DNA of 64,000 nt. Source: an uncultured virus (IMG/VR IMGVR_UViG_3300033463_005796). Taxonomy: Duplodnaviria > Heunggongvirae > Uroviricota > Caudoviricetes. Both the position numbers and the translations under genes were made by a program. Of the stretch, positions 22,494 through 41,813 are shown one piece after another. How positions within the stretch are numbered: position 1 is the first letter of the stretch; each line of letters begins with the position of its first letter. A model generated the notes under the pieces. The model saw nothing but the letters and a program-made list of their open reading frames with translations, made no database searches and was not told the DNA's origin. The stretch is from the IMG/VR virus record IMGVR_UViG_3300033463_005796; one strand, 5' to 3'.

Positions 22494-23711
22494 TTAGTCT
22501 CCATTCTTGAGAAGGTACTTAGCTGAGACCTTCTTGAAGGAGATTTCTCCATTGTCGATTCTTTTGAAGACAACACCCTCGATCTGGTTTCCATTGTCAG
22601 ACTTCCGATCGACATACTTCTCAAAGTCTTCAATTGAATGGAGCTTCTGGAAGATCTTGCAAGTCTCAATGACCTTGACATGCTCAAGGCCAAGGAACTC
22701 ACAGATAGAGTATCTGACTTCCGGAGAGACAAACTTCTGGTCAGTGATGTCAAAGATGCGGAAGACTCTGAAGTGAGACTCAGCATTCTTGTCACGGTTG
22801 CCATTGAACTTTGGTCCAATCATTTCACCTTGGATTGCAAGCTCATGCTTAGCCGGGAAGATTTCTACGTCACCATCTTTTCTCACTAAGCCAATGCCAT
22901 ACAGCGTGTCAAGTCTGTTTTTCAGACCATCCCAGCCAATCTTCTTGAAAGCAGCAAACCAGTCATCGCTTCCACCATCGTCTTTCAAGAGGAAACGACG
23001 AGAAGAGATCTGCATTGCATCTTTTCCAGTCTCGGGGTTCCAAGTCAAAGGACGGTAGAAGAGGGTGCAAGAAGAACCATCATTCTTCTCAGTGCATTCC
23101 CAATCAGCATTGGCCATCTCTGGGTCAGTGAAGTATTCCATCAGTGCCTCAAGGCGGATCTCATCAGTCTTAGGAACATCTGAAGGGAAATTGCCTGAAG
23201 CATGGGACTGTGCTCTAGGACCGAGCTGAGAACGCTCGTCAAACCACTCGACAAGACGATCATAGACTTCAACTTTGAAGAGTGAAGTCATGTCAGTCCC
23301 AACAGGAAGATCTATGAAGAATGGAGTCTCAGGAGTGTTAGGAAACTCATGAGCAATTGTCTGCAGAGGAATGACAAGACCTTGAGAGACTTGGCCACGA
23401 AGCTTGATAGTCTTGATCTTCACATACTGCTCAGAGAATGCTGAAGACTCGGGTGTCTTTCCAGTGTAAAGCTTCTTCAAAGCTACGTTCTTAAGGAACT
23501 CCATGCAAGGAAGAAGATCATTGACATTGATTGCTGAGTCAATCTCGAAGTAGACGACCTTCTGACCAACAGAAAATTCACCTTTCTTTACGACGACTTT
23601 CCAGCCAAGGTTCTTCATCTCAGCTACTTCAAGAAAGTCAGAGTTCTCAATAGGAGAAAGCTTAGCAATCTCCTGGATTGACGCCATTTTACGTTGAGTT
23701 TCAGTAAGCAT
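22494..23711 (-). CDS. ATP-dependent RNA ligase, DRB0094/Rnl5-like
   Basis: N-terminal RKMASIQ...WKVVVKKGEF...VYFEIDS...KLRGQVSQGL; PKTDEIR; motif I EKNDGSS; QGEMIGP; FDI; EGVVFK; SFKKVS. Confidence 0.9.
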   Translation of the reverse strand: MLTETQRKMASIQEIAKLSPIENSDFLEVAEMKNLGWKVVVKKGEFSVGQKVVYFEIDSAINVNDLLPCMEFLKNVALKKLYTGKTPESSAFSEQYVKIKTIKLRGQVSQGLVIPLQTIAHEFPNTPETPFFIDLPVGTDMTSLFKVEVYDRLVEWFDERSQLGPRAQSHASGNFPSDVPKTDEIRLEALMEYFTDPEMANADWECTEKNDGSSCTLFYRPLTWNPETGKDAMQISSRRFLLKDDGGSDDWFAAFKKIGWDGLKNRLDTLYGIGLVRKDGDVEIFPAKHELAIQGEMIGPKFNGNRDKNAESHFRVFRIFDITDQKFVSPEVRYSICEFLGLEHVKVIETCKIFQKLHSIEDFEKYVDRKSDNGNQIEGVVFKRIDNGEISFKKVSAKYLLKNGD

Positions 23712-23769
23712 TTTCTTTTCCTTTGTTTTACGTTCTTATTATATCAACTTCTGCAGCAGTTTAGCAGAG

Positions 23770-24948
23770 TCATTCTATTTCAAAAAGCTGAATGAACTTG
23801 TCATCAGTGATTGACACCACAAAGTCATCTGTCAGCTTGCCATCATACGCCTTGAACCAAAGCATTGCCTGCGGCTCATTCTTATGACGAAGAGCAAAAT
23901 CTTTTCTAGAAAGGTGCTCTTCATTGATTTCACCATCAACACAAGTCTTAATGAACTTTACTCTCAGCATTGCAGCATTGACTCGAAGTCTAACCTCATC
24001 AAAGCGCTCCTTGTACTCGGGGAAATATGAAAGGAATTCAGCATCTTCACCTTTGCGGATCAAAGCTACCATTGCTTCTAGATCCATTGCTCCGTTTGAC
24101 ATCTGCTTGTGCAGTTGGAAATAGAGCTTTGATTTCATCTTGATCCTATTGCCATTGCCATCTCTGACAACAATGCCCTCATGCTTAATGCCAAATCCTT
24201 CAACAAGATTCGTGTAGTCTTCAGGAGACTTCATCTCATAAGCTGTTGGAGTGTCAACACCTAGCTGATATCCAACATAGCCATCAACCACAAGGTTCCC
24301 CGTCAGCTCTGCTCCATCTTCATTTCTGAACCTGCCAATAAGGAAGAGCTTTGGCTTTGGATAGTCAATGACAATGCGATTGAACCTAGAGCAAAGCTCA
24401 AAGCAATATGTCGCCTTCTTCCAAAGATATCCTCCTGTAAATGGATCTTTGCTATCCGGGCTTTCAAGCTTTTTCTTGAATTTAGGATAGTTCTTCTCAA
24501 TAATGTCTCTCAGCAGTGCGCCAAATGTTGGGTAGATGGCATCTGACAGTTCTGCTTCATCTACATCGAAGTTCTGTCGAGTTCCAAAAATCCAACGTCC
24601 ATCATAGTATGAAAGAAACACTAGTGTCCCATCTTCCTTGATTGTGGCATTTGCAGTGTCCCAATCGATATTTGCAGCAGGGCCTTCACCATAGTTGAAG
24701 AACCTGTTGAACCCCTTTCTTACGATTTTGAACTTCTCTTTTGAGTCAAGGACAAGGCCACGAGCTTCAGCTACGATTGGATCATAGTTGTCAGACTCAA
24801 GCATGTTGTAGTTGAACATGACATAGCGTCCATCTGCAAAAGACGAACGCTTGATCTTCAATGAATAAGGAGGTAGCTGAAGTGCAGCTTCCCAATCATC
24901 ATGCTCAAAAATGAACTTTTGAATGTTTAGCATCTTTTTATAGGTCAT
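23770..24948 (-). CDS. T4 Rnl1-like RNA ligase
   Basis: EARGLVL, RFFNYGE, motif I KEDGTL, FELCS...NRIV, EGIVV, RIKMKS. Confidence 0.88.
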   Translation of the reverse strand: MTYKKMLNIQKFIFEHDDWEAALQLPPYSLKIKRSSFADGRYVMFNYNMLESDNYDPIVAEARGLVLDSKEKFKIVRKGFNRFFNYGEGPAANIDWDTANATIKEDGTLVFLSYYDGRWIFGTRQNFDVDEAELSDAIYPTFGALLRDIIEKNYPKFKKKLESPDSKDPFTGGYLWKKATYCFELCSRFNRIVIDYPKPKLFLIGRFRNEDGAELTGNLVVDGYVGYQLGVDTPTAYEMKSPEDYTNLVEGFGIKHEGIVVRDGNGNRIKMKSKLYFQLHKQMSNGAMDLEAMVALIRKGEDAEFLSYFPEYKERFDEVRLRVNAAMLRVKFIKTCVDGEINEEHLSRKDFALRHKNEPQAMLWFKAYDGKLTDDFVVSITDDKFIQLFEIE

Positions 24949-25771
24949 CTAGTGTTTGTTCTTCACCCTTGCACATTGCAAGGAACTCTTTCTCAGACAG
25001 GAGCTTTGTCCCAAGCTCACGAGCTTTGCAGGCTTTAGTCGATGTGCTGTTAGGATCAGCAATGACAAGATAAGTAAGGCCCTTTGAAACACTGCTCTTG
25101 ATCTCAAACCCAACAGACTCAGCAAGCTTCTGAGCTTCAGTCCGCCCCATTGTCTCAAGTGCGCCTGTGAAACAAATAGACCCCTTAGAAGATGGGCGAG
25201 CGACATCATCTACTCCGCTATAGTGGTATCTAGAATCAGTAACAATCTTCTTTGTATTCTCAATGGCTTCAGGAAGATATTCCCAAAAAGCTTCAATTGA
25301 CTTCTCACCAATTCCAGCAGGAAGAGTTGAAAGCATATGCTGCTTCTCATTGTCTTCATGCTTCAGGCCCATGATCCAGTCAAAATGGTAATGCTCGATG
25401 ATCTTTCCAATCTGAACTTCTGCTAGACCCTTGAAGTGCATTGCTCTAAAGATCTTCTGTGGAGAAGCTGAAAACAGCTTGTCATTCAGCTCATTGTAAA
25501 GTGTAGTCTCACTCTTATAGTTTGGATTTGGAGTGAATGAGATCAAATCACTGACAGTCTTGATTCCAAAGTTGTCAAGCTGCTTCTTAGCTGAATGCTT
25601 GATGTCAAACTTCTTGATGAACACAGTCAAAGCAGTGCCAAGCTTAGCTTCACACTCTTTGTTCATGCATCGAAGGTCAACACCATCAACCACCAATGGA
25701 GATCCACAGCATGGACAGACCATTGGCGCCAGATAGCGGTCATGTAGCTCTTGAACTGAAATGTCTTTCAT
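24938..25771 (-). CDS. NAD-dependent DNA ligase, C-terminal part (Zn finger, HhH, BRCT)
   Basis: CPCCGSPL...LRCMNKEC, GIGEKS HhH, ICFTGAL...SSVSKGLTYLV...KARELG BRCT. Confidence 0.85.
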   Translation of the reverse strand: MKDISVQELHDRYLAPMVCPCCGSPLVVDGVDLRCMNKECEAKLGTALTVFIKKFDIKHSAKKQLDNFGIKTVSDLISFTPNPNYKSETTLYNELNDKLFSASPQKIFRAMHFKGLAEVQIGKIIEHYHFDWIMGLKHEDNEKQHMLSTLPAGIGEKSIEAFWEYLPEAIENTKKIVTDSRYHYSGVDDVARPSSKGSICFTGALETMGRTEAQKLAESVGFEIKSSVSKGLTYLVIADPNSTSTKACKARELGTKLLSEKEFLAMCKGEEQTLDDL

Positions 25772-25927
25772 GATTTCTTTTATTAGGTTTACATAATAAT
25801 TATATCAAGTTTAAAACTAATTGGCAGAATAAAATTTAACTAATTTAAAATTTTAACAAAAAGCTCTTGCCTATAGACAGGCAAGAGCATAGCATAGCAA
25901 TTAATGTTCGTTCCATGATGTTTTATA

Positions 25928-26003
25928 TGGGGCGGCGGATGGGATTTGAACCCATAGTTATTCGGACCACAACCGAAAGTCTTGCCATTAGACGACTGCC
26001 ACC
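25928..26003 (-). tRNA. tRNA-His(GTG), G-1 encoded
   Basis: cloverleaf, TTCGG-TTGTGGT-CCGAA, C73, CCA. Confidence 0.9.
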
Positions 26004-26809
26004 ATTTTAATATTTTCTAAAGATATTTTACCATTTATAAAATCACCATAATTTGTTTTATCAATAAAAAGTATTTTAACATCATTTTGTGTTAAAACTA
26101 ATTTCATTTTTTCTTTATCTTTTGAACTATAAAAACCTTTCACTTCAATGTATAAATCATTTTTTGGAATATAAAAATCTGGAATATATCTGTGTTCAGA
26201 ATTATCTTCTTTAAAATATTTTATTGTTTTATTTCTTTCCCAGAGTATTCCTAAATCATTTAATCTTTTTGCAACATTTAATTCCCATAATCCTTGAAGT
26301 TTATATTCTTCATTATTTATATTAAAATATGAATAAAACTTTACATCAGTTCTTTGTGAAGGTAACTTTCCATTTTTATATAAATAAATTTTTGTTCTTG
26401 ACATTTTATCACGTGATTCTTTAGAATGATGTCTTCCTTTAAATCCCGGTATTATTTTTCCATTTTTTATATTATTTATATATGTTTCACTACCTCTTTT
26501 AATACTAATATTTGTTTCTTTTGTCAAACCTTTATTCCATCCACCTTTAACACAGAGTTGTGAATGTTCTTTATGCTGGTGTTCTTTTAATTTAGCACGT
26601 GTTTCTCCAATAAAATCACAATGTGAACATTTCCATGTTCCAAATGGTGATTTTAATTTTAGATGACTAGTAGATGTATTAAAATTACAAACATGCCTTT
26701 TTACTTTAGAGGCAATAAATTTCATTCTACATGATTTAGAACAAAATCTTCCACTACCATAAGATCCATCATGCTCTTTCTTACAAAATTCACAAATATA
26801 TTTTTCCAT
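25988..26809 (-). CDS. putative homing endonuclease (Zn finger, NUMOD3-like, PD-(D/E)xK domain)
   Basis: CEFC...RFCSKSC, FKGRHHSKESRDKMS, YIPDFY...IEVKG; very AT-rich insertion in tRNA array. Confidence 0.75.
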   Translation of the reverse strand: MEKYICEFCKKEHDGSYGSGRFCSKSCRMKFIASKVKRHVCNFNTSTSHLKLKSPFGTWKCSHCDFIGETRAKLKEHQHKEHSQLCVKGGWNKGLTKETNISIKRGSETYINNIKNGKIIPGFKGRHHSKESRDKMSRTKIYLYKNGKLPSQRTDVKFYSYFNINNEEYKLQGLWELNVAKRLNDLGILWERNKTIKYFKEDNSEHRYIPDFYIPKNDLYIEVKGFYSSKDKEKMKLVLTQNDVKILFIDKTNYGDFINGKISLENIKMVAVV

Positions 26810-26844
26810 ATAATTTAATTACTTTAAATGATTAAATTATTGGT

Positions 26845-26867
26845 TTACCAAACTGAGCTACCGTCGC
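26845..26867 (-). pseudogene. 5' fragment of a tRNA
   Basis: GCGACGG-TA-GCTCAGTTTGGTAA then breaks off at the endonuclease leader. Confidence 0.55.
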
Positions 26868-26868
26868 A

Positions 26869-26944
26869 TGGCACATTGAGCCAGACTCGAACTAGCATTA
26901 GTGGATTTGGAGTCCACGGTCCTAACCAATTGGACGATCAATGT
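26869..26944 (-). tRNA. tRNA-Trp(CCA)
   Basis: GTGGA-CTCCAAA-TCCAC, CCA end. Confidence 0.92.
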
Positions 26945-26946
26945 AT

Positions 26947-27021
26947 TGGCATTTCCGCTGGGAATCGAACCCAGACCTTCTGAATGAGAATCAGAGAACC
27001 TAACCTTTAATCGACGGAAAC
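26947..27021 (-). tRNA. tRNA-Glu(CTC)
   Basis: TCTGA-TTCTCAT-TCAGA. Confidence 0.92.
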
Positions 27022-27096
27022 TGGCGTCCCATGCTGGAGTCAAACCAACTTCACTGGTTCCGTAGACCAGGGCCCGATTCGTTAGACCAATGGGAC
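27022..27096 (-). tRNA. tRNA-Arg(ACG)
   Basis: CTGGT-CTACGGA-ACCAG. Confidence 0.9.
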
Positions 27097-27104
27097 ATAT
27101 AAGA

Positions 27105-27180
27105 TGGAGCATTCGGTGGGTGCCGCCCCCACGTATAGCGGTTTTGCAGACCGCCGCGTTTGCTGTTTCGCCACGAATGC
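27105..27180 (-). tRNA. tRNA-Cys(GCA)
   Basis: GCGGT-CTGCAAA-ACCGC, U73, atypical T loop. Confidence 0.85.
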
Positions 27181-27181
27181 T

Positions 27182-27256
27182 TGGTGCTGGAAGATGGAAT
27201 CGCACCACCGACGCTCTGCTCTTCAGGCAGACGCTCTACTTCTGAGCTATTCCAGC
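27182..27256 (-). tRNA. tRNA-Phe(GAA)
   Basis: TCTGC-CTGAAGA-GCAGA. Confidence 0.92.
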
Positions 27257-27331
27257 TTTTGCTCTTGAATTCCATCTGCAATCCGAAGCCAGACCACTTA
27301 GATTTTAAAGTTGTCGAAATCAAATCAACTT

Positions 27332-27406
27332 TGGTATGTCTGACAGGACTCGAACCCGCATAGAATTCCTTAGGACGGAACCGAGGATCCATTCCTCAAC
27401 AGACAC
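27332..27406 (-). tRNA. tRNA-Arg(CCT)
   Basis: GTTCC-GTCCTAA-GGAAT. Confidence 0.85.
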
Positions 27407-27482
27407 TGGTGGGCATGGCAGGATTCGAACTTGCACTTGACTGCCTCTGAAACAGTTGCCTCTGCCGTTGGGCTACATACCC
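27407..27482 (-). tRNA. tRNA-Leu(CAG), short variable loop
   Basis: ACTGT-TTCAGAG-GCAGT, A73, 5-nt variable loop. Confidence 0.85.
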
Positions 27483-27490
27483 GAAATCAA

Positions 27491-27565
27491 TGGTGGCGTT
27501 GGCAGGACTCGAACCTACAACCATGGGATTATGATTCCCGTGCTCTACCATTGAGCCACAACGCC
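27491..27565 (-). tRNA. tRNA-Met(CAT), elongator (Ile2 not excluded)
   Basis: CGGGA-ATCATAA-TCCCA, G2:C71 and C3:G70. Confidence 0.88.
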
Positions 27566-27577
27566 ACTGTGAAGAAG

Positions 27578-27664
27578 TGGTGGGCCTGATAGGAATTGCA
27601 CCTACACGGGATTTCTCCCCTTGGATCCTTAGTCCAAGGCGGCTGCTAGTTACGCCACAGACCC
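27578..27664 (-). tRNA. tRNA-Leu(AAG)
   Basis: TTGGA-CTAAGGA-TCCAA, long variable arm. Confidence 0.85.
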
Positions 27665-27698
27665 ATATTTATATTTTACTTTTTGAAAGTTGAAATTT

Positions 27699-27787
27699 CA
27701 GAGAGGAGAGGATTCGAACCTCCGGACGTTTTTAGGCGCCACAGCATTTCCAGTGCTGCTCCATAAGCCAGACTCGGACACCTCTCT
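27699..27787 (-). tRNA. tRNA-Ser(GGA), no encoded CCA
   Basis: CAGCA-CTGGAAA-TGCTG, long variable arm, G73. Confidence 0.9.
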
Positions 27788-27792
27788 ATAGT

Positions 27793-27884
27793 TGGCGCCG
27801 GGAGAAGGATTCGAACCTTCGGGACGTTTTGAGGCGTCCAACGGTTTAGCAAACCGTCGCTTTAAGCCACTCAGCCATCCCAGC
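27793..27884 (-). tRNA. tRNA-Ser(GCT)
   Basis: ACGGT-TTGCTAA-ACCGT, long variable arm. Confidence 0.92.
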
Positions 27885-27892
27885 ATTAAATT

Positions 27893-27984
27893 TGGCGGAA
27901 GGTGAGGGCTTCGCTCCCCCGTGGCTTTTTAGGGCCAACCGCATTTCGAGTGCGGCGCGATAAGCTGGACTCTGCCAACCTTCC
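27893..27984 (-). tRNA. tRNA-Ser(CGA)
   Basis: CCGCA-CTCGAAA-TGCGG, long variable arm, atypical T loop. Confidence 0.88.
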
Positions 27985-28060
27985 TGGTGGTCCCAGCCCG
28001 ACTCGAACAGGCGACATTCTGCGTGTAAAGCAGACGTTCTAACCACTGAACTATGGAACC
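27985..28060 (-). tRNA. tRNA-Val(TAC)
   Basis: TCTGC-TTTACAC-GCAGA. Confidence 0.92.
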
Positions 28061-29107: not shown

Positions 29108-29196
29108 GTAATTAAAGGTTCAATATTATTTACAAAAAACCCATCAGAGTTGAACCTCAAGGAGAATTACTTCTATCTTGAACTCTGATGAATAAG

Positions 29197-29277
29197 AGAG
29201 TCCGCTACTCTGCCGATTGAGTTACACCGGAATAATTGGTTCCGGTGGAGGGACTTGAACCCTCAACTCGCGGATTA
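29197..29277 (-). tRNA. circularly permuted tRNA, most likely Lys(CTT), split in the anticodon
   Basis: 3' half 29277-29237 (TAATCCGC...CACCGGAACCA) precedes 5' half 29231-29197 (TCCGGTG...GCGGACTCT); all four stems pair. Confidence 0.8.
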
Positions 29278-29352
29278 TGGCAAGGCACCCGGGAGTTGAA
29301 CCCGGCTCTTCGGGATGAAAGCCCGATGAACTAACCGATATTCGAGTGCCTC
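29278..29352 (-). tRNA. tRNA-Glu(TTC)
   Basis: TCGGG-CTTTCAT-CCCGA, G73, CCA. Confidence 0.9.
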
Positions 29353-29773: not shown

Positions 29774-29932
29774 TGGTGGCGCCTGGTGGTAACGCTCCAC
29801 CCGTCCCGAAGGAGCAGATTTTGGCGGGCTCACGGGGAATCGAACCCCGAATAATGGATCGACAATCCATAGTTATAACCGTTTAACTATGAGCCCACAG
29901 TCTGCCGCCCCTCTTTAGAGCTATAAGACGCC
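29774..29932 (-). tRNA. tRNA-Tyr(GTA) interrupted in the anticodon by a complete tRNA-Asp
   Basis: 5' half 29932-29897 ends GCAGA-CTGT; 3' half 29821-29774 starts AAA-TCTGC; acceptor GGCGTCT/AGGCGCC-ACCA; long variable arm. Confidence 0.85.
29822..29896 (-). tRNA. tRNA-Asp(GTC), nested in tRNA-Tyr
   Basis: GGGCTCA/TGAGCCC-GCCA, ATGGA-TTGTCGA-TCCAT. Confidence 0.92.
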
Positions 29933-35849: not shown

Positions 35850-36290
35850 ATGCCGCTTTCATTTCCAGTATATTGGCTTCTTAGCTCCGGTGGAACACTT
35901 GGAGTCAACTGGAATGCAGGAACTGAACTTGCATCTAACAAAGGTGTCTGGCATGGTGGTGGCAGTGGATGCTCTATTGAGATAACTAAGATTGGAAGTG
36001 TCTACTGGAAATGCACATCAGGATCTGAAGCGAACTTAGGAAGAGGAGGAAATCCAGATTTGAATGGTCCAGATGTCTATATCTGGTTCAAGAACAAAGC
36101 TAATGGAAAAATCATCGGTGGATTCTTAGACAGATGGACTTTAGACCGTCCTCGTTTACGTGGATTTGGAAATATCAAAAAGCTTTGGCATATGAATCCA
36201 GCACTTATAATTGCTACTTCCAGTGAAGCTCAATTAGGATTATGTGGCCAGAATGGTGGAGTAAAGTCTCCTTGGTATCGGTTAGGTTAA
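35850..36290 (+). CDS. hypothetical protein (lone + strand gene)
   Basis: 146-aa ORF filling the gap, AAGTAATTA upstream. Confidence 0.6.
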   Translation: MPLSFPVYWLLSSGGTLGVNWNAGTELASNKGVWHGGGSGCSIEITKIGSVYWKCTSGSEANLGRGGNPDLNGPDVYIWFKNKANGKIIGGFLDRWTLDRPRLRGFGNIKKLWHMNPALIIATSSEAQLGLCGQNGGVKSPWYRLG

Positions 36291-36917
36291 GCTGTCTAAG
36301 ACATAGCACCATTGCTCTATCTCTTCTTCATTAAGCTGTATCTTATAGCCAATCTTCCATAGTTCTTCTGCTGTTATTGTGCAGAGGAGCTTTTCTTTTT
36401 TAGAATTAGTCTCTTTGATGACTTGGAACTTTTGAAGTGGGACATTGCTTTCAGCTATCAGTTCCTTGAATCCCTCTCTGTCGTCATTCCATCCATGGAA
36501 ATCTGGATAGACATTGTCCATCAGCCATTTTGCCAGAGCAGTGCTTGAGACTAAGACAATGGAATCTTTCTCACAAAACGCAATGAATCTGTCTTGGACA
36601 TCTGGATTCTCTATTTTGACTTCCAACGAAACATCCCGTTTGTTTCCATTTGTATCGAATGGACATATCCAATGGTTGTCCCAGTCTATCTTTGTCTTGA
36701 TTCCCTTTGGTGATTTAGCGTCAAAAGCTATCCAATCTTTTCCGTTTCGTCGAAGGAAAAAATCACATTTGAGAGCATGGTCTTCATGCCAATTTTTCCT
36801 TGACCGCATTTCAATTGTTTTGTCGAATGGGTACTTTGCCCTTGTCCGTGATAAGATGATCTTTGAAACAAATTCTTCTATTGGACCTGCATATTTTTCG
36901 AAATCTTCTTTTGGCAC
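36282..36917 (-). CDS. hypothetical protein, possible PD-(D/E)xK nuclease fold
   Basis: CDFF...FDAKS spacing only. Confidence 0.5.
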   Translation of the reverse strand: MPKEDFEKYAGPIEEFVSKIILSRTRAKYPFDKTIEMRSRKNWHEDHALKCDFFLRRNGKDWIAFDAKSPKGIKTKIDWDNHWICPFDTNGNKRDVSLEVKIENPDVQDRFIAFCEKDSIVLVSSTALAKWLMDNVYPDFHGWNDDREGFKELIAESNVPLQKFQVIKETNSKKEKLLCTITAEELWKIGYKIQLNEEEIEQWCYVLDSLT

Positions 36918-37256
36918 AATATCGTTATAACTGATTCACTAATCATAATATACTCCTAATGAAATGCACCTTCTGACAGGTCACTTTGAGGAACTTTGAA
37001 CTTCTGGGCTTATCTCATGCAATTTTTAATAAATAGGATTTTGGAACTAATGACATTATAACTTTTGAACTGCCAATATTTTTAATAACACTTAAAGAAA
37101 CGACAATATTGCTATTGTCATTTCTTTAAGTTATTGAAGCTGTAATCTTTATGTTTCAGGATTATTGAAAATCGGTTTAAAGCATTATTTATCCTGTTGA
37201 AAGAAAATCAGCCACGAGCATCAAATGATGTCACTTTTAGGCTTGTTGTCTGTCAC

Positions 37257-37622
37257 TCAGATGGTTGCTTCAGGCTTTGCTCCAGCACCCTCATTGTCCC
37301 ATGCGACTGGAACAGGAATGGTAGCTGAACCACCTTCAGCTGCAACCTTGACAACACCTACGAGGTCATCATAGGCAGACGGTCCAAAGTAATTTCGGAT
37401 AGCCTCACCACCAGACTTCCGCTCAAGGAGCGTCAGTGCATTCTTGAAACGCTTTCGACCAACAAGCTCACCAACATGCTTCCATGCATTCTGAGCTGTG
37501 CGAGCCAGCTTGACGGCTTCAGGGAGTGGCTTACGGCCACGCTTCTTAGGAGTAGTTTCTTCGTTCATTTTGTTGTTTCCTTTACTTTCTCTTTCCGAAC
37601 AGGCTGAACAGGAATCCAGCAT
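37257..37622 (-). CDS. hypothetical protein with AT-hook-like KKRGRKP
   Basis: likely start MNEET after AAGGAAA. Confidence 0.55.
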   Translation of the reverse strand: MLDSCSACSERESKGNNKMNEETTPKKRGRKPLPEAVKLARTAQNAWKHVGELVGRKRFKNALTLLERKSGGEAIRNYFGPSAYDDLVGVVKVAAEGGSATIPVPVAWDNEGAGAKPEATI

Positions 37623-37759
37623 GATGCTTAGTTTCTTTGATGATTCTCTTCTTCGGCTTGTATGCGGACTTTGTGATTTTACCCATTTTTGTTTGTTTCG
37701 TTGTTGTTTGTTTTAAACTCTTTTCCTTTCTTTGGTTGGTTTGGTTGGTTTGGTTGAGC

Positions 37760-38194
37760 TTAGATCGCAAACGTGTCAGCAAGGACCCAGTAGTTAGGCT
37801 TGCTTTCATCTTCCCAGAACACAGCACCATTCTCATCAAGAGTCTCGATGCTTGCTCCAAAGTATTGGCTAAGATTAGACTTAGATGCACGGACTGAACA
37901 TCCAGTCTTCTCATTCATGATCTCAAGGTAAGTGTAAGTCATAGACTTATGCTTTTCCTTAGTAAGAGTCATCTTGATGTATTCAGGAAGCTTGTAAGTC
38001 ATGATCGGAATCATTCGCTTCCAGATGGCAAACCGACGGGCGACTTCTTCCAAAGAGACCTTTTGCTTGACCCATTCAGTGACAGTTCCATCACGATGCT
38101 TGACAATGTGCTTTTCCATTTGATTAGTACCCCCAAGATTCGTAGTGAGTAGACTTGCCAGGCTTCTCAAGATAAGCATCAGCATAAGATGCAA
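37760..38194 (-). CDS. hypothetical protein
   Basis: likely start MEKHI. Confidence 0.55.
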   Translation of the reverse strand: MHLMLMLILRSLASLLTTNLGGTNQMEKHIVKHRDGTVTEWVKQKVSLEEVARRFAIWKRMIPIMTYKLPEYIKMTLTKEKHKSMTYTYLEIMNEKTGCSVRASKSNLSQYFGASIETLDENGAVFWEDESKPNYWVLADTFAI

Positions 38195-38681
38195 TCCGAA
38201 TGTATGGACGCTTGTCTTCGTAGTATTGAGCTGCTTGGACTCGCTTTACGTCACCATTCTTCTGGTCTTTGATATGGACTGAAAAGCTCTTCACTGGAAG
38301 AAGTGTCCCATCAGAAGGAATATCATACGTGCGGTCTGCAGAGAATGGACCGGTCCCATGGTCATCTAAGATAGGAGGACAGACTTCCTTGATCCTGACA
38401 CTGTTCTTTCCAACCTTCTCAATGACTTGGAAGAAGTCAACATTCGTCTGCTCATATCCCCAAGAGCAAGAGAAGACATCACCGACCTTCACTTTGTCGA
38501 GGATTCCTTCATTGTCAGCTTTGCGCTGAGCAGCACGTTCCTTCCGTTCAGCTGCAAGGCGTTCCTTTCGAGCAAGCACCTTCCGGTTGTGCTCTTCATA
38601 GAATGCCTTTGACTCAGGAGAAAGATAGTCTGGAATCGGCCAAATGCCATGCTTCGTGTAGGGGTTTTTGATTTTGAGCAT
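38124..38681 (-). CDS. hypothetical phage protein
   Basis: VKVGDVFSCSWGYEQTNVDFFQV. Confidence 0.7.
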   Translation of the reverse strand: MLKIKNPYTKHGIWPIPDYLSPESKAFYEEHNRKVLARKERLAAERKERAAQRKADNEGILDKVKVGDVFSCSWGYEQTNVDFFQVIEKVGKNSVRIKEVCPPILDDHGTGPFSADRTYDIPSDGTLLPVKSFSVHIKDQKNGDVKRVQAAQYYEDKRPYIRIASYADAYLEKPGKSTHYESWGY

Positions 38682-38705
38682 TTTGATTTTCCTTTGTTTT
38701 ATGGT

Positions 38706-39023
38706 TTAGAGGCTAACTACTTTGTTGGCTGATAGACGGAATCGTGCACGAGGATTTTCTTTATGGATTCTATCCATCCAATAAAGGAAAGTTCCAACAA
38801 ACTTATTGTCATTTGAAGGCATGTTGTAGCCATAGCTAATGTCACAGCAAGCATAAGAAGGTTCATTGTCTTCAACTTCTCTGTCATTGAAATATGCATA
38901 GAGGTCGAAGAGAATCTTTTCACCTTGGCCAAAATGCTTAATGACATCTTTAGCAGTAGACTTTGTCTTCTGATAAGACATTGTCACACCATAGTTCGTC
39001 GACATAATCCAGTTCTTAAGCAT
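38706..39023 (-). CDS. hypothetical protein (paralog of 46790..47206)
   Basis: shared IHxENPxARF. Confidence 0.6.
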   Translation of the reverse strand: MLKNWIMSTNYGVTMSYQKTKSTAKDVIKHFGQGEKILFDLYAYFNDREVEDNEPSYACCDISYGYNMPSNDNKFVGTFLYWMDRIHKENPRARFRLSANKVVSL

Positions 39024-39108
39024 TAGTTGATTTCCTCTGTTTTATCAGGTTGACAGAATTATTATAACAAGCTGGAAACCTATTAGCAGTCTCTCTAGAT
39101 TTTTATTT

Positions 39109-40251
39109 TCAAGAGGCCTTTTCTTTTGCAAGAGAAACCATCGACAGGAACTCAGACTCGGACAGAAGCTTTGTCCCAAATGCACGCGCACGGCAAGCTT
39201 TGATCGACGTAGAGTTAGGATCAGCCATCACAAGGTATTTCAAGCTTTGTGTCACACTAGTATGGATGTCAAATCCAACAGACCGAGCAAGCTTCTGCGC
39301 ATCTGCACGAGTCATTGTCTCAAGTGCGCCTGTGAAGCAGATAGAGCCTTTATAAGGAACTGTCTTGTTCTGAGGAACTTCTTCTGGCTTGTCAAGCGTA
39401 CTGGCTGCAAGCTCTAGCATGTCAATAGAAGGAGGAGCAGAAGGAGCATCAGCTGCAATAGGCTCTTCAGCCATTGGAGCTTCCGGCTCAACAGGAACCT
39501 GAATCTCCTTCTTTCTGAAGATGATCAAGTTCTGCCCGTATTCAACATGCTTGAACTCAGAATACTCATAGCCATCAGCAATGATCTCACGGAACTTCTC
39601 CTTGCAGACTGCAAGGAACTCATTGCGCTTAGTTGCACGGCACCAGTTCCTCTTCTTCTTGCTGTCAGGAATTGGACCAACACCGACAGTCTGAAAATGA
39701 CGGAACCGATAGAGCTGCTTGTCCGGATCGAACCAAAGCGAATAAGTGTTGTGAACTCCTCGAGAATAGCTGCCTTTACTTTGGTAGTTGTAAGACCATC
39801 CAGTATCAAAGTCAACAATGGCTTTTTCTAGAGGAACTAGTGTGACACGGTCAACACCATTCTTTCGAGACCAAGAAGCATGGTCGTTGTCAAGACAAAG
39901 AAGATGGACATCAGGCGTAGTATTTCCCCAAGAAGTCGGCTTGATGAAGCCATCAGGAAGCTTATAGAACTTTGAATCATTCCCTGAAAGGCCCCCTCGG
40001 AAAGAACGCTCAAACGCTTCACAGTAATTTCGGCCAATCTTTCGAACTTCTCGATTGCCAGCTTCTACCTTGACTCGAACTTCTTCATACTTTCGGATCA
40101 TGGCTTCATGAAGAGCATCAGAGATGTCCTTCGGAAGATACTGCTCTTTGACAATCGGGTGAGAAGTCGCAGCTCCCCAACCGGGACCGTTGTACCACTT
40201 CTCAGTGCAGATCGAGATGAGCTCACCGGGGAATTCAGCTTTGCGTGCCAT
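39109..40251 (-). CDS. protein with C-terminal ligase-type BRCT domain
   Basis: KGSICFTGALETM...ADPNSTS.KAC.AR..GTKLLSE.EFL nearly identical to BRCT of 24938..25771. Confidence 0.8.
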   Translation of the reverse strand: MARKAEFPGELISICTEKWYNGPGWGAATSHPIVKEQYLPKDISDALHEAMIRKYEEVRVKVEAGNREVRKIGRNYCEAFERSFRGGLSGNDSKFYKLPDGFIKPTSWGNTTPDVHLLCLDNDHASWSRKNGVDRVTLVPLEKAIVDFDTGWSYNYQSKGSYSRGVHNTYSLWFDPDKQLYRFRHFQTVGVGPIPDSKKKRNWCRATKRNEFLAVCKEKFREIIADGYEYSEFKHVEYGQNLIIFRKKEIQVPVEPEAPMAEEPIAADAPSAPPSIDMLELAASTLDKPEEVPQNKTVPYKGSICFTGALETMTRADAQKLARSVGFDIHTSVTQSLKYLVMADPNSTSIKACRARAFGTKLLSESEFLSMVSLAKEKAS

Positions 40252-40274
40252 TTGGTTGTTTCCTTTGTTTTGGG

Positions 40275-40607
40275 TTAAGAATCCAGGATTACAAGAATGT
40301 CGTCAATAGCCGACTGAGGATCATAGGTCTCAGAATAAGTTTGACTTGGAGCATCAGACCAAGGATCCCATTCAAAGTATTTTCGAAGGACATCCTTGAT
40401 CGCTTCAACTTTCACAGTGTCATTTCTGTTAGGATAGAACTTCGCGAACAGAAGGTCATAGTTGTCTTTAATGATCTTGACCTCTTCCTTAGACATGTTG
40501 ACTGTATAATCCCGAAGGTAGCAGTCGAACATCTCCTTAGTGACGTCTTCAACAGTCACAGGATCGAAGTTTCCAAAATCGCAGTCAGCCATTTTGTTTC
40601 CTTTCAC
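40275..40607 (-). CDS. hypothetical protein
   Basis: acidic ORF in early block. Confidence 0.55.
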   Translation of the reverse strand: MKGNKMADCDFGNFDPVTVEDVTKEMFDCYLRDYTVNMSKEEVKIIKDNYDLLFAKFYPNRNDTVKVEAIKDVLRKYFEWDPWSDAPSQTYSETYDPQSAIDDILVILDS

Positions 40608-41018
40608 TTAAGCAGTTTCAACAGCGTAAGCATTGCACTTGACGGTTGTATGGACTTCAAGTGGACGGATGAACCAGTCAACCTGACCACCTGAATCTCC
40701 AGGAAGCTCATATTCTTCAACAAACCGTTCAATGATCTTGGGATCGACAGAAGGAACATAGCGGGTGTACCAAGAAGAATCCCACTCACCACGAACAAGG
40801 ATCTTGCACCAAGTCTTGCCCTCTTCTTCGTCTAGAGGCTCATAGCAGAACCCCATAGACTTAATATGGCCATCAGTGAAGAAATCACGCATAACTCCAT
40901 ATCCACCGATCTTGTTAGGATCATTGAGGAAGTCTTCATACCACTTGATGCAGCGAGCTTCCTGTTCAGGAGTATGGTCAGCGACTTCTTTGACGAACTT
41001 CCAGCAGTAGAGTTTCAT
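40608..41018 (-). CDS. hypothetical protein
   Basis: first gene after class I promoter. Confidence 0.6.
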   Translation of the reverse strand: MKLYCWKFVKEVADHTPEQEARCIKWYEDFLNDPNKIGGYGVMRDFFTDGHIKSMGFCYEPLDEEEGKTWCKILVRGEWDSSWYTRYVPSVDPKIIERFVEEYELPGDSGGQVDWFIRPLEVHTTVKCNAYAVETA

Positions 41019-41110
41019 GGTTGATTTTATTTGTTGGTTTGTTTTATTTGGGTGATATAATTATTATAACAAACTGAAAATCTTTTGGCAGTCTCAATTA
41101 AAAATAATTT

Positions 41111-41425
41111 TTATCCATCAAGTGCCGATTTAGCGAGGTATTGAAATCTGTCCCATGCAGCATTTGCTCGATCAATATCTCCAGGACAAATGTCAATGGC
41201 TCCAAGCATGTCAAGATATTCGATGTCAGCGCTCTTTGCCATTCTCTTAAAGTCTTCATCAGTCTTCCCTGGAAAATGATTGTTGCACCACTCTTCAACA
41301 TCGTGGTTGATCTTGACAAGGTCTTCATATGTCATAGTGTTTCCTTTGTTGCTAGTTGTTCTCAGCAGCGTCTTCAAGCTGGTTGCAAAGTGAATCCCAA
41401 TAGTCTTGGCCATAGTAAGCCACAA
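41111..41425 (-). CDS. hypothetical protein
   Basis: likely start MTYED. Confidence 0.5.
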   Translation of the reverse strand: MWLTMAKTIGIHFATSLKTLLRTTSNKGNTMTYEDLVKINHDVEEWCNNHFPGKTDEDFKRMAKSADIEYLDMLGAIDICPGDIDRANAAWDRFQYLAKSALDG

Positions 41426-41555
41426 TTGGGCCTTTAGCTTCTTCCTTGTTCAGCCACTCAAGTGCTGCACACCAGAACTTGCCTTCAACAAGCGAATTGA
41501 ATGTGTCAATCGCTTGGTTGGCTTTGGTCAGGATGTTCTTCCAGTCTTTAGCCAT
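41352..41555 (-). CDS. hypothetical protein
   Basis: first gene after class I promoter. Confidence 0.55.
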   Translation of the reverse strand: MAKDWKNILTKANQAIDTFNSLVEGKFWCAALEWLNKEEAKGPIVAYYGQDYWDSLCNQLEDAAENN

Positions 41556-41646
41556 GTTGATTTCCTTTCAGGTGGGTGACAATATTATTATAATAAAAAA
41601 CTAAATTTTTGGCAGAATTATTTTTATCCGCTAAAAATTTAGTAAA

Positions 41647-41738
41647 AAGAGTGGCGGTCTAACTGTTGAACCTACTGCCGGGTATCGTTAATTGATTGGT
41701 CCGGCAGGCTGGATTTGCACCCGCAACGTCCACCTTAT
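41647..41738 (-). tRNA. circularly permuted Ile-like tRNA (anticodon reconstructs as TAT)
   Basis: 3' half 41738-41697 (ATAAGGTGG...CTGCCGGACCA) precedes 5' half 41681-41647 (CCGGCAG...CCACTCTT). Confidence 0.75.
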
Positions 41739-41813
41739 TGGAGCGGCATATGGGATTTGAACCCATGTGATTAGCTTGGAAGGCTAGGACCCGAACCACT
41801 AGGCCAATGCCGC
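41739..41813 (-). tRNA. tRNA-Gly(TCC)
   Basis: CTAGC-CTTCCAA-GCTAA, U73. Confidence 0.9.

What the first reader, a model, noticed from the sequence alone, without database searches (positions are those of the whole stretch)
22494..41813. Candidate new system: phage tRNAs broken at the anticodon and assembled using neighbouring tRNAs as processing guides plus phage RNA ligases
Seen: 28 intact tRNAs cover 18 amino acids; only Tyr and Lys lack intact genes in this window, and exactly these occur as anticodon-split genes (plus an Ile-like one). In all three cases the 3' half begins at the base right after the CCA of an intact tRNA (Asp, Glu, Gly). An Rnl1-like and an Rnl5-like ligase lie next to the array; a Thg1-like protein, P-loop kinase and two phosphoesterases are also present. 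Known: RNase P and RNase E/Z leave 3'-OH and 5'-P ends, the substrates of ATP-dependent RNA ligases; T4 Rnl1 seals anticodon breaks; tRNA-Lys (PrrC, PARIS) and tRNA-Tyr (retron PtuAB, colicin E5) are anticodon-nuclease targets. Inference: ordinary tRNA maturation liberates the halves and a phage ligase seals them, making supply of these tRNAs ligase-dependent; alternatives are pre-nicked decoys or protection of the gene from anticodon-targeting DNA elements.
Basis: partly seen in the sequence, partly recalled or inferred. Interest (0 to 1): 0.95.

Follow-up and report, generated by a model that had tools for sequence, protein, structure and literature searches.

The report
Phage tRNA genes broken at anticodon
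A large phage from ruminant guts carries three tRNA genes that are interrupted or circularly rearranged exactly in the anticodon loop, next to two RNA ligase genes, which points to an undescribed way of cutting and rejoining tRNAs in a bacterial virus.

Summary
All tRNAs lie on the minus strand: 28 intact genes cover 18 amino acids, with none for Tyr or Lys. "Split" covers two layouts. tRNA-Tyr(GTA) has a whole tRNA-Asp inside its anticodon loop. tRNA-Lys(CTT) and tRNA-Ile(TAT) are circularly permuted (3' half, CCA, spacer, 5' half) and start at the base after the CCA of tRNA-Glu or tRNA-Gly.

Comparative evidence shows these are maintained genes, not debris:
- DNA contigs from three other ruminant runs lack exactly the 75-base tRNA-Asp, giving the predicted joined Tyr gene.
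- A relative with 68% ligase identity keeps Tyr[Asp]Tyr with compensatory stem changes.
- The permuted Lys covaries in another relative.
- Relatives carry Lys, Asn and Glu genes interrupted by 64-72-base tRNA-like inserts. These keep an acceptor stem and CCA or CCC, and most a T arm.

Best reading (0.6): tRNA end-processing enzymes cut beside the guide tRNA, and the adjacent Rnl1-like or Rnl5-like ligase seals the loop. No RNA data exist. The 3' end of the permuted 5' halves is unexplained. Lak megaphage "enigmatic" tRNA introns are partial prior art. No paper on permuted tRNA genes in phages turned up.

The parts
29897..29932 (-). tRNA-Tyr(GTA) 5' exon: acceptor strand, D arm, anticodon-stem strand, and loop bases CTGT
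   Evidence: Read. The precursor's minimum-energy fold is a nested double cloverleaf. Joint 29821->29897 in the DNA of three other runs.
29822..29896 (-). tRNA-Asp(GTC), a complete tRNA ending in CCA that sits inside the Tyr anticodon loop as the 'intron' and processing guide
   Evidence: ARAGORN; Rfam 66.6 bits. These exact 75 bases are absent from contigs of X3, X5 and X6 and present in X4, L058 and L063 (with a different Asp sequence).
29774..29821 (-). tRNA-Tyr 3' exon: loop bases AAA, anticodon-stem strand, long variable arm, T arm with loop AGCGTTA, acceptor strand, ACCA
   Evidence: Acceptor pairs 1-72 and 2-71 covary with the 5' exon in L063.
29278..29352 (-). tRNA-Glu(TTC); its CCA abuts the first base of the Lys 3' half (guide tRNA)
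   Evidence: Same arrangement in L058.
29237..29277 (-). Permuted tRNA-Lys(CTT), 3' half (TAA, anticodon-stem strand, T arm, acceptor strand, ACCA)
   Evidence: Joined with the 5' half it is called tRNA-Lys(ctt). Fold.
29197..29236 (-). 5-nt spacer (29232-29236), then the permuted tRNA-Lys 5' half (29231->29197, ending CTCT)
   Evidence: Five stem pairs changed versus L058 and all still pair, three of them by changes on both sides.
29131..29193 (-). Hairpin plus T-run starting 3 nt after the Lys 5' half (terminator-like)
   Evidence: Fold (z -2.5). Conserved in L058. NOT called by the consensus terminator scan.
41739..41813 (-). tRNA-Gly(TCC); its CCA abuts the first base of the Ile 3' half (guide tRNA)
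41697..41738 (-). Permuted tRNA-Ile(TAT), 3' half
   Evidence: An X6 contig runs collinear over 41553-41764.
41647..41696 (-). 15-nt spacer (41682-41696), then the permuted tRNA-Ile 5' half (41681->41647, ending CTT). The junction register is less certain: a shift would read Lys(TTT).
   Evidence: The alternative register was proposed by ARAGORN's intron mode.
41594..41643 (-). Hairpin plus T-run starting 3 nt after the Ile 5' half (terminator-like)
   Evidence: Fold (z -4.7). Not called by the consensus scan.
23770..24948 (-). Rnl1-like ATP-dependent RNA ligase, the candidate sealing enzyme
   Evidence: Pfam RNA_lig_T4_1 65 bits. T4 Rnl1 structures match at E 5e-10 with KEDGTL aligned to KEDGSL. 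PHROG 562. Relatives of this gene lie within 10 kb of the broken tRNA genes in L058, L062 and L063, but those loci were found through this gene.
22494..23711 (-). Rnl5-like RNA ligase (N-terminal OB fold plus nucleotidyltransferase), a second candidate sealing enzyme
   Evidence: Pfam RNA_ligase plus PHA02142 OB. Naegleria gruberi RNA ligase matches at E 3e-27.
16630..17496 (-). Thg1-like protein; belongs to the tRNA toolkit, its role here is inferred only
   Evidence: Pfam Thg1 73.9 bits; PHROG 4717.

Best explanation
These are discontinuous but functional tRNA genes of two related layouts.

Nested layout (Tyr). A complete tRNA, or in relatives a stripped-down tRNA-like element, sits inside the anticodon loop.

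Permuted layout (Lys, Ile). The 3' half follows directly on the CCA of an upstream tRNA. It is followed by a short spacer and then the 5' half.

Proposed route, all steps inferred:
1. The precursor folds so that the two halves already pair through the acceptor and anticodon stems.
2. The host's tRNA end-processing enzymes treat the guide tRNA as a normal substrate. RNase P cuts at its 5' end and leaves a 3'-OH on the upstream exon.
3. An RNase Z/BN-type cut directly after its CCA leaves a 5'-phosphate on the downstream exon.
4. The nicked anticodon loop is sealed by the phage Rnl1-like ligase, or possibly the Rnl5-like one. These ends need no healing.
5. In the permuted genes the acceptor loop is opened by the same enzymes.

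Shown here: gene anatomy, exact junctions, conservation, covariation, and the presence of ligases with the right chemistry.
Inferred: every enzymatic step, the ligase's identity, and how the 3' end of the permuted 5' halves is made.
For: 1. Exact anatomy. In all three genes the 3' part starts at the base after a tRNA's CCA. In Tyr both boundaries are fixed by tRNA-Asp, and the loop adds to 7 nt with T33, anticodon GTA and A37. The precursor's minimum-energy fold is a double cloverleaf.

2. The predicted junction exists as DNA. A joint 29821->29897, skipping exactly 75 bases with no bases between and no register ambiguity, is seen in contigs of 3 of the 4 runs laid (X3, X5, X6). X4 keeps the insert.

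3. Deep conservation. L058 has 93% Rnl1 identity and L063 has 68%. Both keep Tyr[Asp]Tyr. In L063 acceptor pairs 1-72 and 2-71 and one D-stem pair changed on both sides (alignment).

4. Permuted Lys in L058. Five stem pairs differ and all five still pair, three by double changes. One of the double changes lies in the anticodon stem formed between the first and last segments of the gene. The loop bases are unchanged.

5. The same tRNA occurs in different states. The window's permuted Lys is most like the intact Lys(ctt) of L063 (0.78). The nested Asn of L063 is most like the intact Asn genes (0.77). Lys(CTT) is permuted in the window and L058, and nested in L062 and L063.

6. Inserts look like processing handles. 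All four tRNA-like inserts in L062 and L063 (64-72 nt) fold with a 6-7-bp acceptor stem and end in CCA or CCC, while their D and anticodon arms are degenerate. Three of the four also fold with a T arm; the Glu insert's minimum-energy fold shows none.

7. Specificity of my scan. It found no CCA-tailed nested hit in the window plus L001-L057 (1.04 Mb). Within L058-L084 (0.28 Mb) the only such hits were the four in L062 and L063.

8. Rnl1-like and Rnl5-like ligases lie next to the array.

9. From established knowledge (recalled, not from a call): RNase P and RNase Z leave 3'-OH and 5'-P ends; E. coli RNase BN/Z and Thermotoga RNase Z cut CCA-bearing precursors right after CCA; T4 Rnl1 seals anticodon-loop nicks.
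Against: - There is no RNA evidence of any kind.
- The permuted 5' halves have no guide tRNA downstream. Three nt and a hairpin follow, so their 3' end is unexplained and the Ile junction register is uncertain.
- A cut exactly after CCA is not the general bacterial route, and the host is unknown.
- The joined Tyr is not recognised by ARAGORN. Its D and T loops are non-canonical.
- In L063 the Asn insert gives a 7-nt loop only in a register where it ends CCC. ARAGORN's own call of that insert, one base different on each side, would leave a 5-nt loop.
- The L063 Lys insert has a G-A mismatch at the top of its acceptor stem.
- L063 also has intact Lys genes, so a broken copy could be dispensable.
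- My nested scan accepts only products that ARAGORN calls, so the '7-nt loop' is partly built in for the relatives' cases.
- All relatives were found through the ligase gene, so the ligase link is untested.
- Stem covariation proves structure, not ligation.
Confidence: 0.6

Rival explanations
1. The RNAs are made and cut but never sealed. They act as nicked tRNA-shaped RNAs, either Y-RNA-like scaffolds for a Ro60-like protein or product-like decoys for host anticodon nucleases that target Lys or Tyr tRNAs.
For: - The permuted Lys region hits the Rfam YrlA model (32.3 bits, E 3e-4).
- The window holds other YrlA-like or Y-RNA-like elements: 41932-42045 (39.7 bits), 30924-30992 (30.8 bits), and two RNAs just upstream of the DUF2828/DUF7788 'RNA-binding protein' gene.
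- M. smegmatis YrlA has a 7-bp acceptor stem, is cut by RNase P, and gains CCA in vivo (PMC4201824, passages read).
- A decoy would also conserve its stems and anticodon-loop bases.
Against: - Lys and Ile lack the terminal helix shared by the window's three Y-RNA-like elements (GACRCAYACAGCAA ... YGYGTCTTG). They begin at the base after a tRNA's CCA instead.
- All YrlA scores are far below Rfam's threshold of 69 bits.
- The two loop pieces add to a canonical 7-nt loop with a sense anticodon.
- The same tRNA occurs intact in a relative.
- The intron-less Tyr allele is an ordinary tRNA gene.
Confidence: 0.15
2. The outer genes are casualties of recombination in a tRNA array rich in homing endonucleases. 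The inserted or neighbouring tRNA works, while the outer halves are tolerated debris because the host supplies those tRNAs.
For: - Two endonuclease genes lie inside the array, 28323-28985 (GIY-YIG) and 25988-26809.
- Relatives differ by inserts at several places in the array, and the 25988-26809 gene is absent in X5 and X6.
- tRNA-Asp is present or absent among close relatives.
- L063 has redundant intact Lys genes.
- The Tyr body is odd enough that ARAGORN rejects it.
Against: - Tyr[Asp]Tyr persists between phages with only 68% Rnl1 identity, while the Asp sequence itself diverged to 0.69.
- Every stem substitution seen in the Tyr and Lys halves is compensated or gives G-T.
- The loop bases and CCA are unchanged.
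- Inserts that have lost decoding features are still kept.
Confidence: 0.12
3. The genes are matured, but by another route. A dedicated nuclease could leave 2',3'-cyclic phosphate and 5'-OH ends, which are then healed by the kinase-like and phosphoesterase proteins and sealed by Rnl1, or sealed directly by a host RtcB.
For: - The window has an AAA_33 kinase-like protein, two metallophosphoesterases and a Thg1-like protein.
- The permuted 5' halves need some cut that no tRNA guide explains.
Against: - No candidate nuclease was found among the 91 reading frames scanned against Pfam.
- The strict placement of junctions at the ends of tRNA-shaped elements fits the tRNA end-processing enzymes better.
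Confidence: 0.1
4. The arrangements are assembly errors.
For: tRNA arrays are repetitive, and metagenome assemblies can form chimeras.
Against: The same layouts appear in independent assemblies:
- L058: Tyr and Lys.
- L063: Tyr.
- X4 contig across 29692-29975, and X6 contig across 41553-41764.
Confidence: 0.01

Closest known systems
Lak megaphage tRNA 'enigmatic introns' (Devoto et al. 2019, PMC6784885; passages read, first entry of Table S6)
   Same: Phage tRNA genes, including Tyr(GTA), are interrupted in the anticodon loop. One intron 'itself may encode a tRNA'. The intron is present or absent among related genomes.
   Different: A different phage lineage, from ruminant guts rather than Lak. 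Here the insert's two ends coincide with the junctions and it ends in CCA, whereas the Lak A1 Tyr intron I saw carries about 26 extra bases before its tRNA-like part and ends CTA. No permuted genes and no mechanism appear in the passages I read. Only RNA ligase 2 was seen in the two 'ligase' rows shown of six.
Circularly permuted tRNA genes of Cyanidioschyzon merolae and other algae and archaea (recalled; PMC3400036 and PMC3673656 seen only as search listings and abstract starts)
   Same: The 3' half lies upstream of the 5' half in one unit. The acceptor ends are linked by a short spacer. The junction of the mature tRNA lies in the anticodon loop (in some of those cases).
   Different: Those rely on a bulge-helix-bulge motif, the splicing endonuclease and a circular intermediate. 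Here no such motif forms and the host is presumably a bacterium. One end is set by an abutting tRNA's CCA.
Phage T4 tRNA-Lys repair: PrrC cut, Pnkp healing, Rnl1 sealing (recalled)
   Same: An Rnl1-type ligase acts on a tRNA nicked in the anticodon loop. tRNA-Lys is the substrate.
   Different: In T4 the break is damage done by a host nuclease to a finished tRNA. Here the break is written into the gene, so ligation would be part of biogenesis.
YrlA / bacterial Y RNAs (Chen et al. 2014, PMC4201824; passages read)
   Same: Same order of T arm, acceptor hairpin and D arm. An acceptor loop that RNase P can open. They occur in phages beside tRNA genes.
   Different: YrlA has a Ro60-binding helix, lacks a sense anticodon loop, and lies beside a Ro60 gene. 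Lys and Ile here have none of these. The window's real Y-RNA-like elements are separate loci.
Group I introns in bacterial tRNA anticodon loops, and split tRNA genes of Nanoarchaeum (both recalled)
   Same: The tRNA coding sequence is interrupted at the anticodon loop, or halves are assembled through base pairing.
   Different: There is no ribozyme core: the inserts are 64-77 nt with a tRNA shape, and no intron family was hit. The halves are not on separate transcripts with long complementary leaders.

Membership tests
Circularly permuted tRNA gene | 3' half upstream of 5' half on the same strand, acceptor ends linked by a short spacer | tested here: met
   Lys: 29277->29237, 5 nt, 29231->29197. 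Ile: 41738->41697, 15 nt, 41681->41647.
Circularly permuted tRNA gene | Rotated sequence forms a complete cloverleaf with a 7-nt anticodon loop | tested here: met
   ARAGORN calls tRNA-Lys(ctt), 76 nt, and tRNA-Ile(tat), 77 nt. The unrotated folds are; Lys z -3.6, Ile only z -1.1.
Circularly permuted tRNA gene | Bulge-helix-bulge motif at the termini for the splicing endonuclease (algal/archaeal type) | tested here: not met
   The termini are a 3-4-nt 5' overhang and a 3-4-nt 3' overhang on the anticodon stem. No tRNA-intron endonuclease domain was found in the 91 frames scanned.
Circularly permuted tRNA gene | Circular RNA intermediate and mature joined tRNA | not testable with these tools
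   No RNA run holds the stretch.
tRNA gene with a tRNA-shaped intron (as noted in Lak phages) | Insert inside the anticodon loop that itself folds as a tRNA, with outer exons forming a tRNA | tested here: met
   tRNA-Asp 29822-29896 lies between CTGT and AAA. Relatives: L058, L063, L062.
tRNA gene with a tRNA-shaped intron (as noted in Lak phages) | Intron-less allele in related genomes that equals the exons joined | tested here: met
   Joint 29821->29897, skipping 75 bases, in X3, X5 and X6.
YrlA Y RNA (Rfam RF02553) | Score at or above the family's gathering threshold (69 bits) | tested here: not met
   Lys region 32.3 bits. The Ile region has no YrlA hit at E<=10. 41932-42045 scores 39.7 bits.
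YrlA Y RNA (Rfam RF02553) | Long terminal helix for Ro60 binding, and a position beside a Ro60-type gene | tested here: not met
   Lys and Ile start at the base after a CCA and end before a hairpin. They lack the shared ends of the window's Y-RNA-like trio. They lie 15-28 kb from the DUF2828 gene.
Group I intron in a tRNA | Ribozyme core of about 200 nt or more | tested here: not met
   The insert is exactly a 75-nt tRNA. No intron family reached E<=10 in 25500-30500.
Rnl1 (T4 RNA ligase 1) family | Pfam RNA_lig_T4_1 above cut-off and the lysine motif KxDG | tested here: met
   65 bits against a cut-off of 28.3. KEDGTL aligns to KEDGSL of 2c5u.
Rnl1 (T4 RNA ligase 1) family | C-terminal domain that gives tRNA specificity | tested here: inconclusive
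   The alignment to T4 Rnl1 covers only residues 38-285 of 392. No structure was predicted.
Rnl5 (Naegleria/Deinococcus type) family | N-terminal OB fold followed by the nucleotidyltransferase domain | tested here: met
   PHA02142 OB at 9-116 and RNA_ligase at 203-399. 5cot matches at E 3e-27 over both parts.

The most novel reading that the evidence does not exclude
A protein-and-RNase-P-based tRNA splicing pathway exists in bacterial viruses. tRNA-shaped introns, or abutting tRNAs, recruit the cell's own tRNA end-processing enzymes as the 'splicing endonucleases', and a phage Rnl1-type ligase joins the exons. This would give phage RNA ligases a biosynthetic role rather than only a repair role. 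It would also allow nested and circularly permuted tRNA genes, the latter not reported before outside eukaryotes and archaea in the literature I searched. A corollary is that genes can be broken only where the repair ligase already works. That would explain why the broken set (Lys, Tyr, Asn, Glu) resembles the known targets of anticodon nucleases; that target list is recalled, not tested here.
Probability: 0.5. Interest if true: 0.92.

Novelty: new variant of a known kind. Interest (0 to 1): 0.85.

Why it matters
Bacteria and their viruses are thought to lack protein-mediated tRNA splicing. Their few known tRNA introns are self-splicing. If these genes are matured as proposed, several things follow:
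- tRNA end-processing enzymes would double as splicing nucleases.
- Phage RNA ligases would have a role in making tRNAs, not only in repairing them.
- The 'enigmatic' tRNA introns of Lak megaphages would get a testable mechanism.
- Permuted tRNA genes would extend to a third domain of hosts.
- Standard tRNA finders would be shown to miss such genes, so phage tRNA sets are undercounted. Here Tyr, Lys and one Ile were invisible.
- It would offer a natural design for ligase-gated tRNA expression.

Tried and rejected
- Whole genome of the window: none held.
- GenBank phages: no close relative. There were 13 records, and each match covered only about one tRNA's length.
- IMG/VR: a single-protein search found no relative. 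Exact patterns from the Lys and Tyr 3' halves found nothing. The profile search gave only distant ligases of 34% identity or less.
- Genome contigs: one distant hit.
- The records behind L058, L063 and L067 could not be searched further. The relatives' versions of the Ile gene could therefore not be read, apart from one collinear X6 contig.
- No RNA holder was listed among 24 runs.
- ARAGORN does not call the joined Tyr, even at a lowered threshold.
- ARAGORN's own intron mode mostly returns chimeras of adjacent tRNAs and shifts the junctions. It read Lys as Glu or Thr, for example, so I used my own scans.
- The consensus terminator scan does not call the hairpins after the permuted genes.
- The DUF2828/DUF7788 protein has no sequence match to any solved structure and no TROVE hit in Pfam at E<=10. 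Its likeness to Ro60 rests on the neighbouring Y-RNA-like RNAs and on recall.
- The 32-kb end of LR756508.1, the best GenBank ligase relative at 30% identity, has two tRNAs and no broken gene.
- Mis-assembly was considered and rejected.
- Group I intron and bulge-helix-bulge intron were considered and rejected.

Full report
**What is in the window.** All tRNA genes lie on the minus strand. ARAGORN. A tRNA-Cys at 27105-27180 appears at a lower ARAGORN threshold and scores 44.9 bits in Rfam. A tRNA-Thr(TGT) at 29969-30040 scores 48.8 bits in Rfam. The window is part of a longer contig from a large phage. Its own ligase protein is on record on a 72-kb contig, and close relatives sit on contigs of 270-296 kb. 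No whole genome is held, so intact Tyr or Lys genes elsewhere cannot be excluded.

*Nested (Tyr).*
- The 5' exon runs 29932->29897: acceptor strand, D arm, anticodon-stem strand, then CTGT.
- The complete tRNA-Asp(GTC) follows at 29896->29822, ending GCCA.
- The 3' exon runs 29821->29774: AAA, the other anticodon-stem strand, a long variable arm as in bacterial Tyr tRNAs, a T arm and ACCA.
- tRNA-Asp therefore sits between loop positions 35 and 36. The loop pieces add to 7 nt, with T33, anticodon GTA and A37.
- The 159-nt precursor's minimum-energy fold is a cloverleaf inside a cloverleaf (-64.2 kcal/mol, z -3.3).

*Permuted (Lys and Ile).*
- Lys(CTT): tRNA-Glu(TTC) ends at 29278. The 3' half runs 29277->29237 and ends ACCA. 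After 5 nt the 5' half runs 29231->29197 and ends CTCT.
- Ile(TAT): tRNA-Gly(TCC) ends at 41739. The 3' half is 41738->41697, the spacer is 15 nt, and the 5' half is 41681->41647, ending CTT.
- When the halves are rotated by coordinates in a script, ARAGORN calls full cloverleaves for tRNA-Lys(ctt) and tRNA-Ile(tat).
- Unrotated, the Lys unit folds as a T arm, an acceptor hairpin and a D arm, closed by the anticodon stem with short overhangs (z -3.6). The Ile unit folds the same way but no better than shuffles (z -1.1).
- Each permuted gene is followed, after exactly 3 nt, by a long hairpin and a T-run. I read these as terminators, although the consensus scan does not call them.

*Weak points.*
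- The joined Tyr is not called by ARAGORN. It has four bases between the acceptor and D stems, a D loop without GG, and the T loop AGCGTTA.
- ARAGORN's intron mode shows that shifting the Ile junction would read Lys(TTT).

**Relatives.**
- GenBank phages hold no close relative, and IMG/VR holds none either.
- The Rnl1-like protein has many metagenome relatives. A profile of 44 of them fetched 27 metagenome loci.
- The useful loci are L058 (93% ligase identity), L063 (68%) and L062 (66%).
- Twenty-four DNA runs from 17 studies of bovine, goat and sheep gut hold parts of the array. None is an RNA run.

**The Tyr junction is confirmed at the DNA level.** I laid the contigs of four runs from other studies on 25900-42200. 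Three of them (X3, X5, X6) have a joint 29821->29897. It skips exactly the 75 bases of tRNA-Asp, with no bases between and no ambiguity of register. X5's 547-nt contig carries tRNA-Ala, the joined Tyr gene and tRNA-Thr, with 10 other differences. X4 has a contig that runs unbroken over 29692-29975, so it keeps the insert. The predicted ligation product thus exists as an ordinary gene in close relatives. tRNA-Asp behaves like an intron with presence/absence polymorphism.

**The broken state is old and under selection.**
- L058 has the same Tyr[Asp]Tyr arrangement.
- L063 has it too, with a tRNA-Asp only 0.69 identical.
- In L063 acceptor pairs 1-72 and 2-71 changed from G-C to C-G on both exons, and one D-stem pair changed from C-G to A-T. 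The variable arm was replaced by another hairpin.
- The permuted Lys of L058 has a 7-nt spacer and the same downstream hairpin. It differs from the window at five stem pairs, and all five still pair.
- Three of those five changed on both sides. One lies in the anticodon stem, which forms between the first and last segments of the gene.
- The loop bases CTCT and TAA are unchanged.

**More cases, in other layouts.** I wrote a scan that deletes any candidate insert (6-7-bp acceptor stem plus a 4-nt tail) and asks ARAGORN whether the rest is a tRNA broken within the anticodon loop. It found four cases:

| Locus | Outer tRNA | Insert length | Insert ends | Junction |
|---|---|---|---|---|
| L062 | Lys(CTT) | 65 nt | TCCA | 34\|35 |
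| L063 | Asn(GTT) | 71 nt | ACCC | 36\|37 |
| L063 | Glu(TTC) | 72 nt | ACCA | 35\|36 |
| L063 | Lys(CTT) | 64 nt | ACCA | 32\|33 |

- No CCA-tailed hit occurred in the window plus L001-L057 (1.04 Mb). None occurred in the rest of L058-L084, nor in L085 and L086.
- The permuted scan found only the window's two genes and L058's Lys, among 84 loci.
- The scan accepts only products that ARAGORN recognises, so the 7-nt loops of these four cases are partly built in.
- The anticodon assignments do fit the tRNA bodies. The nested Asn is most like the intact Asn genes (0.77), and the window's permuted Lys is most like an intact Lys(ctt) of L063 (0.78).
- The four inserts are not decoding tRNAs. Their D and anticodon arms are short or degenerate, but all keep a 6-7-bp acceptor stem and the terminal CCA or CCC. 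Three of the four fold with a 5-6-bp T stem and 7-nt loop; the Glu insert's minimum-energy fold shows no T arm. The acceptor stem and T arm are the parts that RNase P and RNase Z read (established knowledge, recalled).
- Two of the inserts share a long motif around the T arm (identity 0.75).
- In L063 six of 11 free-standing intact tRNAs end in CCA, against four of four inserts if ARAGORN's register is taken for the Asn insert. This is suggestive only.

**Mechanism.**

*Shown:* gene anatomy, exact junctions, conservation, covariation, and two ligase genes beside the array.
- The Rnl1-like ligase at 23770-24948 scores 65 bits in Pfam. It matches T4 Rnl1 structures at E 5e-10, with the KEDGTL lysine motif aligned.
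- The Rnl5-like ligase at 22494-23711 has an N-terminal OB fold plus a nucleotidyltransferase domain. It matches the Naegleria ligase at E 3e-27.

*Inferred:*
- RNase P cuts at the 5' end of the guide tRNA and leaves a 3'-OH on the upstream exon.
- An RNase Z/BN-type cut directly after CCA leaves a 5'-phosphate on the downstream exon. Such cuts are described for E. coli RNase BN and Thermotoga RNase Z (recalled).
- The tRNA body holds the two ends in place, and a ligase seals them without any healing step.
- In the array, several intact tRNAs abut with no spacer (coordinates). RNase P alone would therefore make many CCA ends there.

*Unexplained:* the 3' end of the permuted 5' halves. In both genes the distance from the anticodon stem to the hairpin, plus the loop bases on the 3' half, adds to 10, which is 7 plus 3. 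With only two genes this may be chance.

**The main look-alike: Y RNAs.**
- The Lys unit hits Rfam's YrlA model at 32.3 bits, because YrlA is in effect a permuted tRNA-like domain.
- The window does hold Y-RNA-like elements: 41932-42045 (39.7 bits) and two RNAs at about 13842-13943 and 13742-13790.
- Those two lie directly upstream of a DUF2828/DUF7788 gene that PHROGs names 'RNA-binding protein'.
- The three share conserved ends that pair into a terminal helix.
- Chen et al. 2014 found YrlA beside Ro60 genes, also in phages. [quoted passage not shown]
- The permuted Lys and Ile lack that terminal helix. They begin at the base after a CCA, carry sense anticodon loops, and have intact or nested counterparts in relatives.
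- I therefore do not file them as Y RNAs. An unligated, decoy-like role is still not excluded (0.15).

**Prior art and novelty.**
- Devoto et al. 2019 reported 'enigmatic introns' in Lak megaphage tRNAs. One 'itself may encode a tRNA' and is present or absent among cohorts, and one lies in Tyr(GTA). No mechanism is given in the passages I read.
- The first entry of their Table S6 shows a 93-nt Tyr intron whose 3' part looks tRNA-like but is preceded by about 26 other bases. I did not read the rest of that table.
- My searches found no paper on permuted tRNA genes in phages or bacteria, nor on RNase P or ligase-based excision of tRNA-shaped introns. The library lacks most subscription journals.
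- I rate the finding a new variant of known kinds (disrupted tRNA genes; Lak introns). If the proposed pathway holds, it would be a new kind of splicing.

**Verdict.**
- Best explanation: 0.6.
- Rivals: unligated mimic or decoy 0.15; tolerated debris 0.12; matured by another route 0.1; assembly artefact 0.01.
- Interest: 0.85.

Noticed in passing
window 13742-13943 (-), 41935-42062 (-); gene 12149-13696 (-): Three Y-RNA-like RNAs share conserved 5' and 3' ends that pair into a terminal helix. Two lie directly upstream of a DUF2828/DUF7788 'RNA-binding protein' gene. The third has a permuted tRNA-like domain whose acceptor loop holds GCCA (YrlA 39.7 bits, below threshold). This is probably a phage Ro60-like/Y RNA pair, but Ro60 likeness of the protein was not shown.
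   Followed up: partly
window 30878-31026 (-): A composite RNA. An outer tRNA-like frame (7-bp acceptor stem, D arm, T arm) carries, where its anticodon arm should be, an inner permuted tRNA-like module made of a T arm, an 8-bp hairpin and a D arm (YrlA 30.8 bits). L063 15140-15300 looks similar by eye. Function unknown.
   Followed up: partly
window 25988-26868 (-): An endonuclease gene (Phage_endo_I/DUF7487) lies between tRNA-Trp and tRNA-His. A tRNA 5' fragment follows tRNA-Trp at 26866->26840. Contigs of X5 and X6 skip 25995-26859, and L058 has Trp and His 11 nt apart with a different His sequence. This looks like a homing-type insertion that replaced the start of tRNA-His.
   Followed up: partly
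window 32037-33119 (-) and 24938-25771 (-): The NAD-dependent DNA ligase is split into two genes about 6 kb apart. One holds the adenylation and OB domains; the other holds the zinc finger and BRCT domains. The tRNA array lies between them.
   Followed up: no
window 29774-29932, 27105-27180, 29969-30040 (-); L063 18770-18845, 15390-15465: A recurrent class of phage tRNAs has non-canonical T loops (AGCGTTA, GGCGGCA or GGCAGCA types) together with D loops lacking GG. They are conserved between the window and L063. Standard finders miss or under-score them.
   Followed up: no
L063 15306-15384: An intact tRNA-Lys(CTT) has the unusual anticodon loop CCCTTAC, with C at position 33. It lies in the same phage as a nested Lys(CTT) with a canonical loop and an odd Lys(TTT).
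   Followed up: no
window 28323-28985 (-); L063 19655-20677: GIY-YIG/NUMOD3 homing-endonuclease genes lie inside the tRNA arrays. Relatives carry other inserts at 27096/27104 (628 bases) and 27413/27671 (442 bases). The arrays are hot spots for mobile genes.
   Followed up: no
L011 18218-18339: In an unrelated viral contig, a tRNA-Val(TAC) carries a 47-nt insert after position 37 that is not tRNA-shaped. No overlapping intact tRNA is called. This may be another kind of phage tRNA intron.
   Followed up: no
window 7000-8436, 18399-19547, 9566-10732, 21274-22056 (-): Other genes in the window include a MoxR-type AAA ATPase, a DUF2201 metallopeptidase/VWA protein, a DnaJ homologue and a sigma-70-like factor. 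A BspA-type leucine-rich-repeat protein lies at 1555-4176 (+).
   Followed up: no
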